This document shows, in pieces, positions 19,410 through 24,547 of a DNA stretch of 64,000 nt; position 1 is the first letter of the stretch, and the number at the start of each line of letters is the position of its first letter. Origin of the DNA: an uncultured Pelagibacteraceae bacterium (GTDB taxonomy: Bacteria; Pseudomonadota; Alphaproteobacteria; Pelagibacterales; Pelagibacteraceae). The stretch is taken from contig CACNQD010000004.1 in the NCBI GenBank assembly GCA_902622545.1, positions 116,465 through 180,464 on the forward strand, given 5' to 3'. The position numbers were made by a program, and so were the translations under genes. The notes under the pieces are model-generated. The model saw only the letters and a list, made by a program, of their open reading frames with translations. It made no database searches and had not been told where the DNA came from.

Positions 19410-19751
19410 TTAAAAGAAAATATAATAAATAATCCAAAATATAAGCGTATACTCAAAACAACTTTTAAAAAGTATCAATTGCTTTTCACTAAATTTTTGT
19501 ATCAAAAATTTTTTAAAAAGAAAAAAAATTAAATTAACTAATAAAATTCCAATAACTAAACCAATAATCGTAAGTTTGATTGAAAAGTTTTTATATCCAA
19601 AATAAATAGCTGCAATTAATGTAAACCAAGATACTTTTGTTATAAATATTTTAAAAATAAGCCCAGCTTTTTTACTAAATACAGATTGTGTTTTTATTAA
19701 TGAATAAGACCAGATAATTCCTATTAAAAAACTTGTAAACTTTAAAATCAT
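19410..19751 (-). CDS. Small hypothetical membrane protein (starts MILKFTSF)
   Basis: 113 aa, about 4 hydrophobic segments; 4-nt overlap with the upstream amt fusion. Confidence 0.7.
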   Translation of the reverse strand: MILKFTSFLIGIIWSYSLIKTQSVFSKKAGLIFKIFITKVSWFTLIAAIYFGYKNFSIKLTIIGLVIGILLVNLIFFLFKKFLIQKFSEKQLILFKSCFEYTLIFWIIYYIFF

Positions 19752-21985
19752 TTTCCAATCCCAATTATAGTTAAATCGTCATCAAGTATATCATTATTAT
19801 CTTTGATGCCTTTCTCTAAATAATCCTTTTTAAGACTTTTTTGTTTTATTTCTTCAGTAGCGTTGTCTAATTCCTTTTTTAAAACTTGGTTTTCATGTTT
19901 AAGGATTAATTTTTTAACTCCATTAATACCTAATTCTTCATTATTTTCATCTAAACATTCTGAAAAACCGTCTGTGAAACAATAAATTCTACCATTATCT
20001 AATTTAAAGCTCTCTAATTTATAAACATTTGCGTTAGTTTGTTTAACAATAGCTAGTGGTGTTGTTTCAGATGGAAATTCTCTAAAATCCTGTTCTTTTC
20101 TGTATAATGCTGGTTGATGTCCCGCATTTGCTATTTCTACAATATCTGTTTTTAAATTATAACACCCCACAATTGAAGTCACAAAAGTCCCAGTTGGATT
20201 TGTTTCTTTTAAGTCGTTATTCATTTCTAGCAGAATTTCGTTTGGTTTAAATTTTAGCTTTGAAAATATTTTAAATAACGTAATTGATTTAGCCATTACC
20301 ATCCCAGCATTCACGCCTTTTCCAGATACATCAGATAGAGTAAAATAAACCTGGTCATCGTGAAGATAAAAATCATAAAAATCTCCAGAAATTTCCCTAG
20401 CAGGAATATTTAATCCATAGATAGGATAATTTGTGAGATCCCTATTTGGCATAAGTTTTTTTTGAACATTCATTGCTAATTTAATTTCTGAAGATACTCT
20501 TTTCTTCCATTTGTTTTTTTGTTTTTCGCTTTGTTCTAATCGATCCATTAAAATGTTATATTGTGTTCCAATTATTCCACTATCTGTAAAAGGGTCTTGT
20601 GGTGCTCTTAGTGAATAATCTTCAGTTTTAGCTTGATTAGTTAATACCTCTAATAATTCATGAGTATCTGTTGATGCATTATGTTCAGAAATATTTAATC
20701 CTAATTCTTCTTGAATTTTTCCAACTCTTAAAGGGAAAATATAATTTATAGATTTAAATATTACGAATGCGGATATAAAACAAAAACCTCCTATACTAGT
20801 TACTCCTATTAATTGAATATATAATTGTTCCATTCTTGAAATTTCTAAACCCATCATTTCAAAATCACCAAATATAGCTACAGACAAAGATCCCCAAACT
20901 CCAGCAATAAGATGAACTGGTATTGCACTCACAACATCGTCAATTTTTAATTTTTCTAATAAGACTATACCAAAGCCTGAAAGCAGTCCTCCAATGCTTC
21001 CAATAAAAATAGCTTCACTTGGATTTACATAAGCACAACTTGCTGTGATTGAGACTAATCCAGCCAAAGGTCCGGTAATCATAAATAATGGCTCAGGTTT
21101 TTTCATGACAAAAATTCCTAGTATGCTTGAAAAGATTAAACCAAAAGAAGCAGACAAAAATGTATTAATTAAAATTAAAGGAATTTTTAAATCCATTGCC
21201 CCATTAGCTCCACCATTAAATCCGAACCAGCCAAACCACAAAATCAATGCCCCAAGTGCTGCTATAGGTGTATTGCTGCCTTGAAATAATTTTTTATCTT
21301 GATCTTTCCTAAATCTACCTGTTCTGCTCCCAATAATTAATAGAATTGCAAGAGCAACCCATCCTCCTACAGAGTGAACCACAGATGAGCCTGCAAAATC
21401 CAAATATCCCATCTTGCCTAGCCATCCAAATTTTTCAGATGGTTCGTCAAAATTAAATGCCCAAGCCCAGTGACCTACAATTGGATACAAAAATCCTGAC
21501 GTGACAAATGTAATAATTACATAAGAAAAAAATCTTAGCCTTTCTGCAACAGCTCCAGAAATAATTGTTGCTGCAGTTGCTACGAACATCGCTTGAAAGA
21601 CAAAATATGTTTGATAACCAGCTACTTTTGTTGTGAAAAAATAAAACTTATCACCAAACAAACCCATAACACTTGTTCCATACATAAGTGCAAATCCAAA
21701 TGCCCAAAATGTTACAACAGCTATTCCAAAATCAGTAATATTTTTTAATGCAACATTAATACTATTTTTATTTCTTGATAGGCCGGACTCAAGGCACATA
21801 AAACCAGCTTGCATCAAGAAAACTAGAATTGCACAAATCAATAACCAAAAAGTATCTAGATTTGCTTGAAGAATTGCTTCAAGTCGAAATTCCGTAGCTT
21901 TAAGTGCACCTTTATTTGTGAGTTCTAACTGGCTTATTTTTGACTGTAGCTTATCTATTAAAATCTGAAGATCAGCTACAGTCAT
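19748..21985 (-). CDS. Ammonium transporter fused to a HAMP-like linker and a SpoIIE/PP2C phosphatase
   Basis: Amt motifs MQAGF..LESG, DFAGSSVVH, LWFGWFGFNGG, DDVVSAIPVH; PP2C motifs SGDFYD, DVSGKG, TDGFSE, DDLTI. Confidence 0.9.
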   Translation of the reverse strand: MTVADLQILIDKLQSKISQLELTNKGALKATEFRLEAILQANLDTFWLLICAILVFLMQAGFMCLESGLSRNKNSINVALKNITDFGIAVVTFWAFGFALMYGTSVMGLFGDKFYFFTTKVAGYQTYFVFQAMFVATAATIISGAVAERLRFFSYVIITFVTSGFLYPIVGHWAWAFNFDEPSEKFGWLGKMGYLDFAGSSVVHSVGGWVALAILLIIGSRTGRFRKDQDKKLFQGSNTPIAALGALILWFGWFGFNGGANGAMDLKIPLILINTFLSASFGLIFSSILGIFVMKKPEPLFMITGPLAGLVSITASCAYVNPSEAIFIGSIGGLLSGFGIVLLEKLKIDDVVSAIPVHLIAGVWGSLSVAIFGDFEMMGLEISRMEQLYIQLIGVTSIGGFCFISAFVIFKSINYIFPLRVGKIQEELGLNISEHNASTDTHELLEVLTNQAKTEDYSLRAPQDPFTDSGIIGTQYNILMDRLEQSEKQKNKWKKRVSSEIKLAMNVQKKLMPNRDLTNYPIYGLNIPAREISGDFYDFYLHDDQVYFTLSDVSGKGVNAGMVMAKSITLFKIFSKLKFKPNEILLEMNNDLKETNPTGTFVTSIVGCYNLKTDIVEIANAGHQPALYRKEQDFREFPSETTPLAIVKQTNANVYKLESFKLDNGRIYCFTDGFSECLDENNEELGINGVKKLILKHENQVLKKELDNATEEIKQKSLKKDYLEKGIKDNNDILDDDLTIIGIGK

Positions 21986-21991
21986 AAAATT

Positions 21992-22324
21992 TTATTGATC
22001 TATTAATTTTCTTGCTTTTTCTGCATCTGTTATAATTTCATCAACTGACATTACTTTAACAACTTCAAATCCAGTTCCAAGAATTGTGTTTTTGTATTCT
22101 TCTTCTGATATAGGTGATTTTTCAGCAAAACTAGAAACGGCAACTCCCTCCGGCCAAGATACTTTTACCTTTGCATTAGGCATTGCTTCTTGGAGAGCCT
22201 TGGTAACCATTTTCTGACATTTAACACACATCATTCCATTTACTTGAGCAATTTGAGTTTGTGCAGCAAATAAATTTGTGGTCATGAAAAAAAATATAAC
22301 AAATAAGATTGTTTTTTTAATCAT
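21992..22324 (-). CDS. Exported heavy-metal-associated (HMA) domain protein
   Basis: Signal peptide; VNGMMCVKC metal-binding motif. Confidence 0.8.
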   Translation of the reverse strand: MIKKTILFVIFFFMTTNLFAAQTQIAQVNGMMCVKCQKMVTKALQEAMPNAKVKVSWPEGVAVSSFAEKSPISEEEYKNTILGTGFEVVKVMSVDEIITDAEKARKLIDQ

Positions 22325-22369
22325 AAAACTCCTTTGTAGAAATAGTGTAATTTATTTATTATTAATTTA

Positions 22370-22531
22370 CTAATTAAATTTTGGTTTAAATACCAAACAG
22401 AGTCTATTATTACAGTATCTAATTCCGGTTGGTTTTGGACTATCTTCAAATATATGCTCATGATGACCACCACAATTTTTAAAATGGTACTCAGTTCTAG
22501 CATATTTAAAGCTAGCAAACTTAAGGATCAT
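22370..22531 (-). pseudogene. Chimeric 53-codon remnant: 8 codons resembling the start of 19410..19751 fused to a decayed msrB 3' half
   Basis: Manual translation: MILKFASFKYARTEYHFKNCGGHHEHIFEDSPKPTGIRYCNNRLCLVFKPKFN*. Confidence 0.85.
22372..22504. repeat. Diverged direct repeat, copy 1 (copy 2 = 24162..24295, msrB 3' end)
   Basis: Hand alignment: 23 mismatches and 1 gap over 134 columns (~82% identity). Confidence 0.92.
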
Positions 22532-22547
22532 TTATTAGAAAATTTAG

Positions 22548-23240
22548 TTATTCTAGCGCTATTGATACCGAGGGCTCGTTTATCCACATTGCACAAGCAG
22601 TATCCTCTACACCAATTGCAGTTGTTGTGCCAAACTTTATTCTAATAACTGGTGCTCTCAAAGTTTTTTTATAAGAAGCAGTTAATGCATAGATCATTAC
22701 TGCATCATCTCCTGATACTGTCATTGATACCGCTGATGATGGAGAACTGTAATCATAATCAAGGTCAGAACTTCCTACATCACCATCTCTAGCGCCATCG
22801 CCTGCTCCATAACTCCCAGCATTAACTAAGTACATTGCTTCTGAAACAGCTGTTCCACCATTAGTTCCTAATGTTAGCTGTGTTGCGCCTGCATTATCAC
22901 CTCCATCAGTTCTACAAGTTTTAGCTCCAACTGATATGCTTGCAATAACGTTGAATGTTCTATCAAGAGTTACTCTTAAATGTGTATAGGTAATACCAGC
23001 AGGTATTCCAGTTGTTGGTGCATAAGAACTAACATCTGCACCTGCGGAAGCTGATGCGATATCAGCCGCCATAGATTTTGTTCCTAAAACATAAGGTGTT
23101 CCGCTACATGTTGCATTTTCACATAATTCAACTTTTTTCATCGTAACTTCATATTTTGTTGGTTGACCAGTTGCCTCTGCAGCAAAACTGTTTGAAAAAA
23201 ATAATAAAGACAATAAAACCAAAAAAATTATTTTTTTCAT
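22548..23240 (-). CDS. Secreted Gly/Ala/Thr/Ser-rich hypothetical protein with 4 Cys
   Basis: Signal peptide MKKIIFLVLLSLLFFSNSFA; ATG directly abuts the stop of the upstream barrel gene. Confidence 0.8.
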   Translation of the reverse strand: MKKIIFLVLLSLLFFSNSFAAEATGQPTKYEVTMKKVELCENATCSGTPYVLGTKSMAADIASASAGADVSSYAPTTGIPAGITYTHLRVTLDRTFNVIASISVGAKTCRTDGGDNAGATQLTLGTNGGTAVSEAMYLVNAGSYGAGDGARDGDVGSSDLDYDYSSPSSAVSMTVSGDDAVMIYALTASYKKTLRAPVIRIKFGTTTAIGVEDTACAMWINEPSVSIALE

Positions 23241-24128
23241 TTATGAATTTCCATTAGTTATGACTACTCCTGTGCTCTCAACCTCAAGCGTAATTATGTT
23301 ACTTCTTTTTACTTTAGTTAGCATTTTTTCTCTAACATCTGAATTTACAAATGCAGTGCTCGAAAAACCATCAGAGATAATTGGTCTGTCTTTCCCGCCA
23401 AGTTTATAAGTAAGTTTTATAAAGTCCATGCTGTCACTAATATCGTTATCATCATAACCGGCTTTTAATGTTAAATCGTTTGAGAGATTTATTGTTGTTG
23501 AATAAATTTCACCATTTGAGTCTTTCGAACCCTTTATTGCTTCCCAACCATAAGAGTTATATGAAATATTCGCCCATGGCGCATATGGAACCTGTCCCTC
23601 AAATTCTATATTATATCCGTCCAAAACTCTCTCAGTATCTGATCCAACCTCTTGTGATCCACCCATTGCGTCTAAATAATAATTTCCAGTAAAATTAAAA
23701 TTTGCTGCTTTTAATTCTGATCCTAAACTTACTCTACTATTCATCTCTTTATCTAAATCTAAAAAACTATTTAATCCCCAAAAATAACTTTCATCCTCTG
23801 ATAAAAATCTTTTTCCTATACCATAGTTTAAGGATTGACGTGCTTCACCCAAAACATGATAACTATTAAATTGTGCTTGGTAAAAGACTAAATCCTTCTC
23901 ATTAATAGAATATGGTCTTACGATCATTATAGTACCTGTTGGCTTATTTTCATTTTTGGTTGATAATGACACCTCGGTTTCTCCAGGCCCTTCAAGAAAG
24001 TTTTTTATATATGTTTCTGCTTTTTCTGAGCCTTTACCATAAACTTTATTTATTACATTATTTAAAGTATCTGCGTGTATCTCAGTAGCAAAAAACAAGG
24101 TTATAAAAATTGTTAGAATTTTTTTCAC
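23241..24128 (-). CDS. Inverse autotransporter (intimin/invasin-type) beta-domain protein without passenger
   Basis: GTG start, signal peptide; NYGIGKRF, WGLNSFLD, NYYL, ERVLDGYNIE, and C-terminal REKMLTKVKRSNIITLE resembling the intimin linker. Confidence 0.75.
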   Translation of the reverse strand: MKKILTIFITLFFATEIHADTLNNVINKVYGKGSEKAETYIKNFLEGPGETEVSLSTKNENKPTGTIMIVRPYSINEKDLVFYQAQFNSYHVLGEARQSLNYGIGKRFLSEDESYFWGLNSFLDLDKEMNSRVSLGSELKAANFNFTGNYYLDAMGGSQEVGSDTERVLDGYNIEFEGQVPYAPWANISYNSYGWEAIKGSKDSNGEIYSTTINLSNDLTLKAGYDDNDISDSMDFIKLTYKLGGKDRPIISDGFSSTAFVNSDVREKMLTKVKRSNIITLEVESTGVVITNGNS

Positions 24129-24161
24129 TATTATTTAATAATTAAATTTTAAGAATTATAC

Positions 24162-24295
24162 AATTAAATTTTAGGTTTAAATACCAAACAAATACCATTA
24201 TTACAGTATCTTTTGCCAGTAGGTTTAGGCCCATCCTCAAATATGTGACCATGATGACCGCCACAACTTTTACAATGATATTCGGTTCTTGCATA
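24162..24295. repeat. Diverged direct repeat, copy 2 (intact msrB 3' end)
   Basis: See 22372..22504. Confidence 0.92.
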
Positions 24296-24547
24296 ACCAA
24301 TATGATGATCCGTTTTTGTTTCGAACACATCTGGCAAAGATTCAAAAAATGATGGCCAACCAGATCCACTCTCGTATTTTTTTTTTGATTCAAAAAGTTT
24401 TACATCACAATTTACACAGTGATAACTTCCTTCTCTTTTTTCAAAATTTAATTCACTAGATCCAGGTCTTTCTGTTCCCTCTTCAAATAAAATTAATTTT
24501 TGCTCAGATGTTAAATTAGGATTTTTTTTCATATTACTGATGCACAA
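24164..24547 (-). CDS. msrB: Peptide methionine (R)-sulfoxide reductase (true start possibly the second Met, MKKNPN)
   Basis: GTERP, CVNC, SGSGWPSF, CKSCGGHHGHIFEDGP, RYCNN. Confidence 0.95.
   Translation of the reverse strand: MCISNMKKNPNLTSEQKLILFEEGTERPGSSELNFEKREGSYHCVNCDVKLFESKKKYESGSGWPSFFESLPDVFETKTDHHIGYARTEYHCKSCGGHHGHIFEDGPKPTGKRYCNNGICLVFKPKI

What the first reader, a model, noticed from the sequence alone, without database searches (positions are those of the whole stretch)
22548..24128. Split inverse autotransporter: passenger-less barrel plus separately encoded secreted protein
Seen: a 295-aa intimin/invasin-like beta-domain that ends ~15 aa after the linker motif, so there is no passenger; its TAA abuts the ATG of a signal-peptide-bearing, Gly/Thr/Ser-rich, 4-Cys protein. 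Known: type Ve systems are single polypeptides. Inference: a two-partner variant in which the barrel exports or anchors an exchangeable subunit, possibly a variable surface structure or phage receptor in a free-living oligotroph.
Basis: partly seen in the sequence, partly recalled or inferred. Interest (0 to 1): 0.7.

Follow-up and report, generated by a model that had tools for sequence, protein, structure and literature searches.

The report
Barrel-only inverse autotransporter with swappable partner
A marine SAR11 bacterium encodes an intimin-type outer-membrane barrel with no surface domain, always directly followed by a gene for a separately exported protein of unmatched fold; it resembles the Salmonella ZirT/ZirS two-gene system, is untested, and may place a replaceable protein on the cell surface.

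Summary
Minus-strand ORF 23241-24128 (295 aa) is a full inverse-autotransporter beta-domain (Pfam IAT_beta, E 2.3e-26). Its model matches the intimin and invasin barrels. It ends 13-18 residues after that domain, so it has no passenger. Its TAA abuts the ATG of a 230-aa protein (22548-23240) with a signal peptide and four Cys.

The partner is confidently modelled as all-beta (pLDDT 87) but matches no Pfam, NCBIfam or PDB entry. The pairing is not chance. All 73 related loci with enough downstream sequence carry a partner gene at the barrel's stop. Six of seven distant partner relatives, from DNA of 31-65% GC, also follow a passenger-less barrel with the same tail.

Both genes are under purifying selection, and metatranscriptome contigs cover them and span their junction. 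Partner alleles are replaced independently of the barrel. Close relatives lack the whole pair.

Here the barrel has no Ig domain and the partner is not Ig-like, so this is a new variant of a known kind. Surface display, and any role as a phage receptor, are inferred, not shown.

The parts
24129..24163 (-). 35-nt spacer between the msrB stop and the barrel start. No convincing promoter of its own, so the pair is probably transcribed with the upstream DAO-EamA-HDAC-msrB genes.
   Evidence: The promoter and terminator scan found no more sites than shuffles. Metatranscriptome contig X3 record 13 spans 23946-24360.
23241..24128 (-). Passenger-less inverse-autotransporter (type Ve) barrel gene, 295 aa including the signal peptide; stop codon at 23241-23243.
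   Evidence: Pfam IAT_beta E 2.3e-26. AF2 pLDDT 81.3. Foldseek top hits are intimin 4E1S (E 6.8e-14) and invasin 4E1T (TMt 0.80). 195 homologues, nearly all 294-308 aa or 275 aa.
24072..24128 (-). Barrel signal peptide (residues 1-19, cleavage after IHA).
   Evidence: Read from the sequence; modelled as a helix of low confidence.
23985..24071 (-). Short periplasmic N-terminal region (residues 20-48, two low-confidence helices). Its architecture is not conserved: part is deleted in the 275-aa subfamily, and L090 has an AMIN-like domain plus a Pro-rich linker instead.
23403..23984 (-). Transmembrane beta-barrel (residues 49-242).
   Evidence: AF2 strands E50-E242 with pLDDT mostly 85-97; structural match to the intimin and invasin beta-domains.
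23289..23402 (-). Linker or plug segment that returns through the pore (residues 243-280). It includes MLTKVKRSNIIT, the most conserved stretch of the protein.
   Evidence: Aligns to the invasin segment ...LAESRYNLVDRNNNIVLE. Conservation 0.75-0.88. Alignment A1.
23244..23288 (-). Extracellular end (residues 281-295, LEVESTGVVITNGNS). It holds a short strand (281-285) and a conserved 9-10 residue tail that is disordered in the monomer model. The tail is the candidate docking strand for the partner (inferred).
   Evidence: AF2 strand E281-285; residues 287-295 have pLDDT below 50. Conservation 0.82 and 0.70. The same type of tail ends the barrels of L001, L070, L081-86, L090 and L099-L101. A role for the strand after the linker in intimin: PMC13078405.
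22548..23240 (-). Partner gene: a 230-aa precursor whose mature form is 21.4 kDa, acidic and all-beta, with 4 Cys; stop codon at 22548-22550.
23181..23240 (-). Partner signal peptide (residues 1-20, cleavage after SFA). There is no lipobox Cys.
   Evidence: Read from the sequence.
22941..23180 (-). Conserved N-terminal part of the mature partner (residues 21-100). It carries the motif TxYxVTMKKVELC-x4-C and GIPxGxTYTHLRVT. This is the part shared with the most distant partner types.
   Evidence: Many representative hits cover only query residues 1-110 to 160. A weak profile match to the 305-315-aa partner type is restricted to this part (E 6.7e-4).
22746..22940 (-). Variable, loop-rich, Gly/Asp-rich middle of the partner (residues 101-165).
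   Evidence: Column conservation 0.49-0.54, with indels. The lowest nucleotide identity between allele classes lies here.
22551..22745 (-). Conserved C-terminal part of the partner (residues 166-230), ending in the strand EPSVSIALE.
   Evidence: P223 is invariant.
22350..22504 (-). Duplicated fragment of the msrB 3' end directly downstream of the partner. It is the recombination scar that joins the barrel-partner cassette to the HMA plus Amt-PP2C cassette.
   Evidence: 134 nt are 82% identical to window 24164-24296.

Best explanation
The two genes form one dedicated envelope module, a two-partner form of the inverse-autotransporter (type Ve) system reduced to its minimum.

Shown: the first gene makes a Sec-exported, 12-strand-type intimin/invasin barrel. 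Its own linker aligns with the invasin segment that threads the pore, and it ends after about 13-18 further residues, so it has no passenger. The second gene is translationally coupled to the first and makes a separately Sec-exported, all-beta 21-kDa protein with four conserved Cys. The pairing is conserved in SAR11 and in unrelated lineages. Both genes are under purifying selection, and metatranscriptome contigs cover both.

Inferred: the two products are made in roughly 1:1 amounts. The barrel serves as the outer-membrane anchor, and perhaps also the export device acting during its own BAM/TAM-assisted assembly, for the partner. The partner docks on the only barrel feature conserved across all lineages and not explained by the barrel fold: the short, strand-like C-terminal tail. 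By homology with intimin and invasin, that tail lies at the outer face. The partner would dock through its conserved N- and C-terminal parts and present its variable, loop-rich middle to the outside.

Because partner alleles are swapped by recombination, and the whole cassette is present or absent among close relatives, the exposed protein is most likely under diversity-maintaining selection, for example by phages or grazers. Its biochemical role (binding, adhesion or receptor) is unknown.
For: Barrel identity and lack of a passenger:
-.

Pair conservation:
- 73 of 73 loci with enough downstream sequence have the partner gene. In 71 its start lies from 1 nt before to 6 nt after the barrel stop, typically as TAATG; the other two are disrupted.
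- The pair keeps the same synteny (msrB upstream, grx downstream) in a 38%-identical barrel subfamily.
- A passenger-less barrel with the tail ...KV(K/R)RxNxIxhE...GxhxIxRxx* lies directly upstream of distant partner relatives in DNA of 31%, 33%, 57%, 64% and 65% GC, and on a JGI contig.

Both genes are functional:
- dN/dS is 0.07-0.31 for the barrel and 0.10-0.62 for the partner.
- Metatranscriptome contigs at 95-99% identity cover both genes, and two of them span the junction.

The tail is conserved although it is disordered in the monomer model.

The partner has a constant frame and a variable middle.

The partner is exchanged independently of the barrel:
- L004 against L005 is 88-98% identical in nucleotides over msrB and the barrel, 48-78% exactly over the partner, and 82-90% again downstream.
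- Window against L004 gives barrel dS 1.17 but partner dS 0.18.
- Amino-acid identities are discordant, for example barrel 93% with partner 58%, or barrel 66% with partner 81%.

The cassette is dispensable:
- L092, L096 and L097 have msrB followed directly by HMA and Amt, with no pair. Across the flanking DNA L092 is about 97% identical to the window.

Precedent:
- ZirS is secreted in a ZirT-dependent manner (PMC2270342).
- The two-partner IAT model comes from PMC4943183.
Against: - There is no direct evidence that the two proteins touch, or that the partner leaves the periplasm. No complex model could be made.
- By homology, the barrel pore is filled by its own linker.
- No conserved periplasmic receptor domain (such as POTRA) exists.
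- The partner's Cys109 and Cys216 would form a long-range disulfide in the periplasm, which is awkward for passage through a narrow barrel.
- Unlike ZirT, the barrel has no Ig-like domain to bind a partner, and the partner is not detectably Ig-like.
- Conservation of residues 271-285 is also explained by barrel stability alone (PMC13078405). Only about 10 tail residues remain unexplained.
- One of seven distant partner relatives (a 374-aa protein, L087-89) has no barrel upstream.
- The metatranscriptome evidence rests on assembled contigs and could include some DNA.
Confidence: 0.55

Rival explanations
1. Periplasmic complex. The partner never crosses the outer membrane. It folds and forms its disulfides in the periplasm, then binds the periplasmic turns or the N-terminal helices of the barrel, which acts only as a membrane anchor. 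The complex could be an envelope tether, a sensor or a binding protein held under the outer membrane.
For: - The partner has a Sec signal peptide and four conserved Cys.
- The barrel pore is plugged by its own linker, by homology.
- No known route exists for a folded 21-kDa protein through a 12-strand barrel.
- Translational coupling fits any stoichiometric complex.
Against: - The periplasmic N-terminal region of the barrel is the least conserved in architecture. It is partly deleted in the 275-aa subfamily and replaced by an AMIN-like domain plus a Pro-rich linker in L090.
- By contrast, the outward-facing tail is universal.
- Allele replacement and presence/absence polymorphism are more typical of exposed structures. 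This last point is inference from general knowledge of flexible genomic islands.
Confidence: 0.22
2. True secretion as in ZirT/ZirS. The barrel acts as a translocator and the partner is released into seawater as a free exoprotein instead of being retained on the cell.
For: ZirS is released into the medium in a ZirT-dependent manner (PMC2270342). The gene order is the same and the downstream protein is Sec-dependent.
Against: - Overlapping stop and start codons (TAATG) suggest roughly equal amounts of the two proteins, not a catalytic translocator with many substrate molecules (inference).
- Releasing protein is costly for a dilute planktonic oligotroph (general knowledge).
- There is no Ig-like domain on either protein.
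- The conserved tail suggests retention.
Confidence: 0.15
3. There is no functional link. The barrel is a small porin-like channel and the downstream gene is an unrelated exported protein that merely shares an operon.
For: No interaction has been demonstrated. Second-tier Foldseek hits of the barrel model include small porins such as KdgM, NanC and OmpG.
Against: - The pair is adjacent in 73 of 73 loci, and also across lineages of 31-65% GC with unrelated neighbouring genes.
- The stop and start codons overlap.
- The linker that fills the pore in invasin is conserved here.
Confidence: 0.05
4. The pair is a decayed or artificially split classical inverse autotransporter, produced by a nonsense mutation, a frameshift or an assembly error, or it is fused again by stop-codon read-through.
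For: The TAA directly abuts the ATG in the same frame in the window.
Against: - The partner has its own signal peptide in every lineage.
- The junction uses different frames and gaps in different loci, from a 1-nt overlap up to a 25-nt gap.
- Lengths are conserved over hundreds of homologues.
- Both genes are under purifying selection.
- No Big or Ig domain is detected.
Confidence: 0.01

Closest known systems
ZirT / ZirS / ZirU of Salmonella enterica (Gal-Mor et al. 2008, PMC2270342) and the related SinH/SinI and Yfr4/Rat-like operons: the 'two-partner inverse autotransporters' of Heinz et al. 2016 (PMC4943183)
   Same: An outer-membrane barrel of the IAT_beta family is followed in the same operon by a separately Sec-exported protein that has no barrel. 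The barrel is proposed (and for ZirT shown) to be needed for the partner to reach the outside.
   Different: ZirT (about 660 aa) carries its own extracellular IgSF domain, and its partners resemble that domain in sequence. Here the barrel ends 13-18 residues after the beta-domain. The partner has no detectable Ig or Big similarity and no fold match in the PDB. The two genes overlap or abut. The hosts are free-living marine oligotrophs. Function is untested.
[quoted passage not shown] 2016 (PMC4943183)
   Same: An IAT_beta barrel without passenger domains. The SAR11 barrels fit that description.
   Different: In the text read here, that paper treats the clade as a possible ancestral form and does not describe a dedicated partner family for it. 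The paper's supplementary tables were not available, so it is unknown whether SAR11 sequences were in its data set.
Intimin (EHEC/EPEC) and invasin (Yersinia): classical type Ve adhesins (PDB 4E1S, 4E1T)
   Same: The barrel fold is the same (Foldseek E 7e-14 to 4e-13, TMt 0.77-0.80). The conserved linker motif ...(K/R)V(K/R)RxNxIxxE aligns to invasin's ...VDRNNNIVLE.
   Different: There are no Big, Ig or lectin passenger domains and no LysM domain. The surface-exposed function, if any, is encoded on a separate gene.
Type Vb two-partner secretion (FhaC/FHA)
   Same: The logic is a barrel plus a separately encoded, Sec-exported partner.
   Different: FhaC is a 16-strand Omp85 barrel with POTRA domains, and its substrate has a TPS domain. 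Neither is present here.

Membership tests
Inverse autotransporter beta-domain family (type Ve, Pfam PF11924 IAT_beta) | Match to the IAT_beta profile above the curated threshold, over the whole domain | tested here: met
   E 2.3e-26, 93.4 bits against a cut-off of 22.3, profile positions 20-279 of 279.
Inverse autotransporter beta-domain family (type Ve, Pfam PF11924 IAT_beta) | Intimin/invasin-type transmembrane beta-barrel fold | tested here: met
   AF2 pLDDT 81.3. Foldseek top three hits are 4E1S, 4E1T and 5G26, with E 7e-14 to 4e-13 and TMt 0.75-0.80.
Inverse autotransporter beta-domain family (type Ve, Pfam PF11924 IAT_beta) | Linker after the last barrel strand that returns through the pore (conserved ...RxNxIxLE motif) | tested here: met
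   The profile alignment to the invasin crystal construct reaches its residue 243 of 245. This is the most conserved segment of the protein. That the linker actually occupies the pore is inferred by homology.
Classical inverse-autotransporter adhesins (intimin, invasin, FdeC) | C-terminal passenger of Big, Ig or lectin domains on the same polypeptide | tested here: not met
   Only 13-18 residues follow the beta-domain. Homologues are uniformly 275-308 aa.
Two-partner inverse autotransporters (ZirT/ZirS type) | A Sec-exported, barrel-less protein encoded directly downstream in the same operon | tested here: met
.
Two-partner inverse autotransporters (ZirT/ZirS type) | The barrel protein carries an IgSF extracellular domain that resembles the downstream partner in sequence | tested here: not met
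   The barrel has no extracellular domain. The partner has no Big or Ig Pfam hit. Its Foldseek hits to Ig-containing chains have probability 0.08 or less.
Two-partner inverse autotransporters (ZirT/ZirS type) | Barrel-dependent appearance of the partner outside the cell | not testable with these tools
   This needs secretion or surface-exposure assays.
Type Vb two-partner secretion (FhaC/TpsB with TpsA) | Omp85-type barrel with POTRA domains, and a TPS domain in the substrate | tested here: not met
   No such Pfam hits on either protein. The barrel fold is of the intimin type.

The most novel reading that the evidence does not exclude
The pair is a natural minimal surface-display system. A passenger-less 12-strand barrel, with no receptor domain of any kind, would be enough to bring a separately exported, disulfide-stapled protein of a previously unseen fold to the cell surface. 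This would probably happen during the barrel's own BAM/TAM-assisted assembly. The barrel would then hold the partner by beta-strand augmentation with its 10-residue C-terminal tail. The partner would be a major variable surface protein of SAR11 and other abundant aquatic bacteria, kept polymorphic by allele replacement and by gain or loss of the cassette because it is a target of phages or grazers.
Probability: 0.28. Interest if true: 0.8.

Novelty: new variant of a known kind. Interest (0 to 1): 0.55.

Why it matters
Type V secretion is usually explained as self-export of a covalently attached passenger. A conserved barrel that has no passenger at all, yet always travels with one dedicated exported protein, would be a clean natural test of whether an inverse-autotransporter barrel can act on a partner in trans. 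It would also test what the minimal requirements are, since this barrel has no Ig domain and no POTRA domain.

The module sits in SAR11, the most abundant heterotroph in the surface ocean, whose surface proteins and phage receptors are almost unknown. The partner shows allele replacement and presence/absence polymorphism, the pattern expected for an exposed target.

The partner family has hundreds of representative clusters, no annotation and no structural relative, so a structure or a localisation experiment would annotate a large block of 'hypothetical' marine proteins. A minimal two-piece display scaffold could also be useful for surface-display engineering in laboratory strains.

Tried and rejected
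- **Read-through or frameshift fusion of the two ORFs.** Rejected. The partner has its own signal peptide everywhere, and the junction uses different frames and gaps in different loci.
- **Pseudogene or split-gene artefact.** Rejected on conserved lengths and purifying selection.
- **Promoter and terminator scan around the pair.** No more sites than in shuffles.
- **Genome-contig scan with the single barrel protein.** An alignment query would have been better.
- **Viral contigs.** No barrel relatives were found. The partner alignment was too divergent to build patterns.
- **Third homologue search, with a profile of distant partners.** It was swamped by SAR11 sequences and gave no taxonomy.
- **Cluster look-up.** It gave no cultured-strain names.
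- **The genome search and the fetch from genomes.** Both were shut, so the genome-wide and taxon-wide distribution could not be counted.
- **Model of the complex.** A fused or multimer prediction was not attempted.
- **Supplementary tables of Heinz 2016.** Not held.
Full report
**What is there**

The window is low-GC DNA (22-36% GC) of the SAR11 type. Close homologues come from Pelagibacterales or Pelagibacteraceae single-cell genomes.

Two ORFs lie on the minus strand, directly after msrB (24164-24547, SelR domain).
- The first (23241-24128, 295 aa) starts with a signal peptide. It matches Pfam IAT_beta over the whole profile (E 2.3e-26, residues 23-277).
- Its TAA is immediately followed by the ATG of the second ORF (22548-23240, 230 aa).
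- The second ORF has a typical Sec signal peptide without a lipobox. It is 46% Gly/Ala/Ser/Thr and has Cys at 40, 45, 109 and 216.

**The barrel**

With an alignment of 23 homologues, AlphaFold2 gives a barrel at pLDDT 81. Its best PDB matches are the beta-domains of intimin (4E1S, E 6.8e-14) and invasin (4E1T, TMt 0.80). Porins follow only eight orders of magnitude later.

A profile of the family aligns up to residue 243 of the 245-residue invasin crystal construct. The SAR11 segment ...MLTKVKRSNIITLE lies on invasin's ...YNLVDRNNNIVLE. So the protein contains the barrel and the pore-threading linker, plus only about 13 more residues (VESTGVVITNGNS). There is no passenger.

This is not a truncation. 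The 195 homologues found are almost all 294-308 aa, plus a 275-aa subfamily. Barrel dN/dS is 0.07-0.31.

The linker and tail (residues 271-290) form the most conserved part of the protein. Residues 281-285 are modelled as a short strand. In intimin, the strand at the end of the linker forms a small sheet with two extracellular loops that is needed for stability and secretion (PMC13078405). The last nine or so residues are conserved but disordered in the monomer model (pLDDT below 50).

**The partner**

The partner has no hit in Pfam, NCBIfam or PHROGs, nor by profile search against PDB sequences.

The family is large: 382 close homologues and 303 representative clusters at E<1e-3.

Conservation is uneven.
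- The first mature strand (TxYxVTMKKVELC-x4-C), the segment GIPxGxTYTHLRVT and the C-terminal third are conserved.
- Residues 101-165 are loop-rich, Gly/Asp-rich and variable, with indels.
- The four Cys are conserved to below 30% identity. In one subgroup the fourth Cys has moved five positions within the same loop, which suggests a structural disulfide (inference).

**Is the pairing real?**

I collected 85 loci that encode barrel relatives at 38-99% identity.
- In 3 loci the barrel runs off the contig, and 9 have fewer than 165 nt after the stop.
- All the other 73 have a downstream ORF.
- 71 of these start with a signal peptide from 1 nt before to 6 nt after the barrel stop, typically as a TAATG overlap. 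The other two are disrupted but still show partner homology.
- 63 of the 73 are detectably homologous to the window's partner.
- The remaining ten, next to barrels 42-45% identical, are a 305-315-aa, 6-Cys type. Only its N-terminal part shows a weak profile match (E 6.7e-4, including a YxhxxxKVxLC motif).

A 275-aa barrel subfamily (38% identity) sits at the same msrB-grx site with a 292-aa, 9-Cys partner.

I then started from distant partner relatives (25-37% identity) and looked at their contigs.
- Six of seven lie directly behind an IAT barrel. Five of these contigs have DNA of 31, 33, 57, 64 and 65% GC; the sixth is a JGI contig for which no DNA was returned, where the pair lies between flhB and flhA.
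- Wherever the upstream sequence could be read, it ends with the same kind of tail and no passenger. Examples are ...KVRRENRIVVKKVGTTVSGGAVVIVRND*, ...KVRRENKIILERANTGITISRGT* and ...RVRRSDKITIEREYNGSIVVRRSN*.
- One of these barrels is 661 aa, but the extra length is an N-terminal AMIN-like domain plus a Pro-rich linker, which would be periplasmic, not a passenger.
- The exception is a 374-aa partner-like protein without an upstream barrel.

**Expression and selection**

Contigs from four marine metatranscriptomes, at 95-99% identity, cover both genes. Two span the barrel-partner junction (22845-23261 and 23084-23290). One spans msrB and the barrel (23946-24360). This fits co-transcription, with the caveat that these are assembled contigs and may include some DNA.

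No promoter or terminator signal above chance lies around the pair. Partner dN/dS is 0.10-0.62, on average somewhat higher than the barrel's.

**Exchangeability**

On average the two proteins are equally conserved (59.9% for the barrel, 58.4% for the partner, over 703 pairs). Their histories differ, however.
- L004 against L005: nucleotide identity is 88-98% over msrB and the barrel. It falls to 48-78% exactly over the partner gene and returns to 82-90% downstream.
- Window against L004 shows the reverse: barrel 76-87%, partner 88-100%.
- Synonymous divergence agrees: barrel dS 1.17 against partner dS 0.18 for window and L004, and 0.38 against 0.96 for L004 and L005.
- One database protein (P0130) looks like an intragenic chimera of two allele classes.

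So partner alleles are replaced by homologous recombination. The conserved tail-coding end of the barrel gene and the partner's own end appear to act as the anchors for this exchange.

**Dispensability and local history**

Three haplotypes exist at this site among genomes that share an identical HMA protein.
- A: msrB, pair, 113-aa gene (L004).
- B: msrB, HMA, Amt-PP2C, 113-aa gene, with no pair at all (L092, L096, L097).
- C: both cassettes (the window, L091, L093-95, L098).

Relative to L092, which is about 97% identical on both sides, the window has an extra segment at 24138-22505. It holds the pair and is bounded by two copies of the msrB 3' end that are 82% identical over 134 nt. The Amt-PP2C gene next door is the published SAR11 'Amt-GI5' flexible gene (PMC11796062). 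The pair therefore belongs to the flexible genome of this population.

**How it most likely works**

*Shown.* An intimin-type barrel without a passenger, and a dedicated, separately Sec-exported, all-beta partner, are translationally coupled. The pair is conserved as a unit across distant lineages. Both genes are under purifying selection, and metatranscriptome contigs cover both.

*Inferred.*
- Overlapping stop and start codons suggest production in roughly 1:1 amounts, hence a complex and not an enzyme-like translocator with many substrate molecules.
- The periplasmic N-terminus of the barrel varies in architecture between lineages. The C-terminal tail is universal, strand-like, conserved, and unexplained by the barrel fold.
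- There it would be held by the tail, perhaps by strand augmentation, through the partner's conserved frame, with its variable loops exposed.
- How it crosses the outer membrane is unknown. The ZirT/ZirS precedent shows that an IAT barrel can be required for export of a separate Sec-dependent protein (PMC2270342). Engagement during BAM/TAM-assisted barrel assembly is a plausible route, but it is speculation.

I put about 0.55 on surface display or anchoring, 0.22 on a purely periplasmic complex, and 0.15 on release as a free exoprotein. Very little remains for coincidental adjacency or gene decay.

**Comparison with what is known**

Gal-Mor et al. 2008 showed ZirT-dependent secretion of ZirS. 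Heinz et al. 2016 named 'two-partner inverse autotransporters' (ZirT/ZirS/ZirU, SinH/SinI, Yfr4/Rat-like). [quoted passage not shown]

The SAR11 module works like those systems in outline, but it fails two of their features. The barrel has no IgSF domain, and the partner is not Ig-like and does not resemble any part of the barrel protein.

I found no paper that describes this barrel-plus-partner family or any SAR11 inverse autotransporter. It is best classed as a new variant of a known kind.

Earlier notes of this scan report the same module in other SAR11 genomes, in Prochlorococcus and in a gammaproteobacterium. These are unchecked leads. Apart from the general breadth beyond SAR11, which my own loci support, I did not verify them.

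**Verdict**

The two-partner and exchangeable aspects are supported. Surface location and a phage-receptor role are untested. The claim of novelty against 'single-polypeptide' type Ve is overstated.
- Interest is moderate to high for people working on type V secretion and on SAR11 biology. It is limited by the existing two-partner concept and by the lack of any functional evidence.

Noticed in passing
window 22350-22504 (-), compared with 24164-24296: A second, degenerate copy of the msrB 3' end (134 nt, 82% identical) lies just downstream of the partner gene. Together with haplotypes A (pair only), B (Amt cassette only) and C (both), it marks a recombination scar joining two alternative cassettes at the msrB site.
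   Followed up: yes
window 19748-22324 (-): A periplasmic HMA-domain protein (110 aa) and an Amt-SpoIIE/PP2C fusion (745 aa) form a cassette that is absent from L004. The fusion corresponds to the published SAR11 flexible gene 'Amt-GI5' (PMC11796062).
   Followed up: partly
P0130 (metagenome protein, 242 aa; alignment A2): Its N-terminal two thirds match the window/L013 allele class and its C-terminal third matches the L059 class, including an AFRLD insertion. It looks like an intragenic recombinant partner.
   Followed up: no
L087-L089: 1373-2497: A 374-aa partner-like protein has a 120-residue Cys-rich N-terminal extension and no IAT barrel upstream; its neighbours are divergently transcribed genes with no Pfam hit. 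It is the only one of seven distant partner relatives found outside the pair.
   Followed up: partly
JGI metagenome contig (no DNA returned): A 287-aa IAT barrel and a 246-aa partner sit inside a flagellar export gene cluster, after fliP-fliQ-fliR-flhB and before flhA. This may be coincidence or a link to the flagellar or envelope region in that organism.
   Followed up: no
L090: 1990-3975: In a 64% GC organism the passenger-less barrel carries a 400-residue N-terminal extension: a weak AMIN-like match followed by a Pro/Ala-rich linker. It probably tethers the barrel to peptidoglycan, much as LysM does in intimin.
   Followed up: partly
L099: 469-1521: The barrel is called as two ORFs (209 and 118 aa) ahead of an intact partner gene. 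This is either a frameshifted barrel or an assembly error.
   Followed up: no
P0361 (307 aa): Its first 150 or so residues match the L084 partner type. They continue into a Thr/Gly/Ser-rich repetitive C-terminus (...GTITGNLSVGGTLTA...) that looks fibre-like or beta-helix-like. It may be a partner N-domain fused to a different exposed module, or a chimeric contig.
   Followed up: no
L070-L080, gene after the barrel: A distinct 305-315-aa, 6-Cys partner type (AETETTCVRN...) accompanies barrels that are 42-45% identical to the window's. Only its residues 59-134 show a weak profile match to the main partner family.
   Followed up: partly
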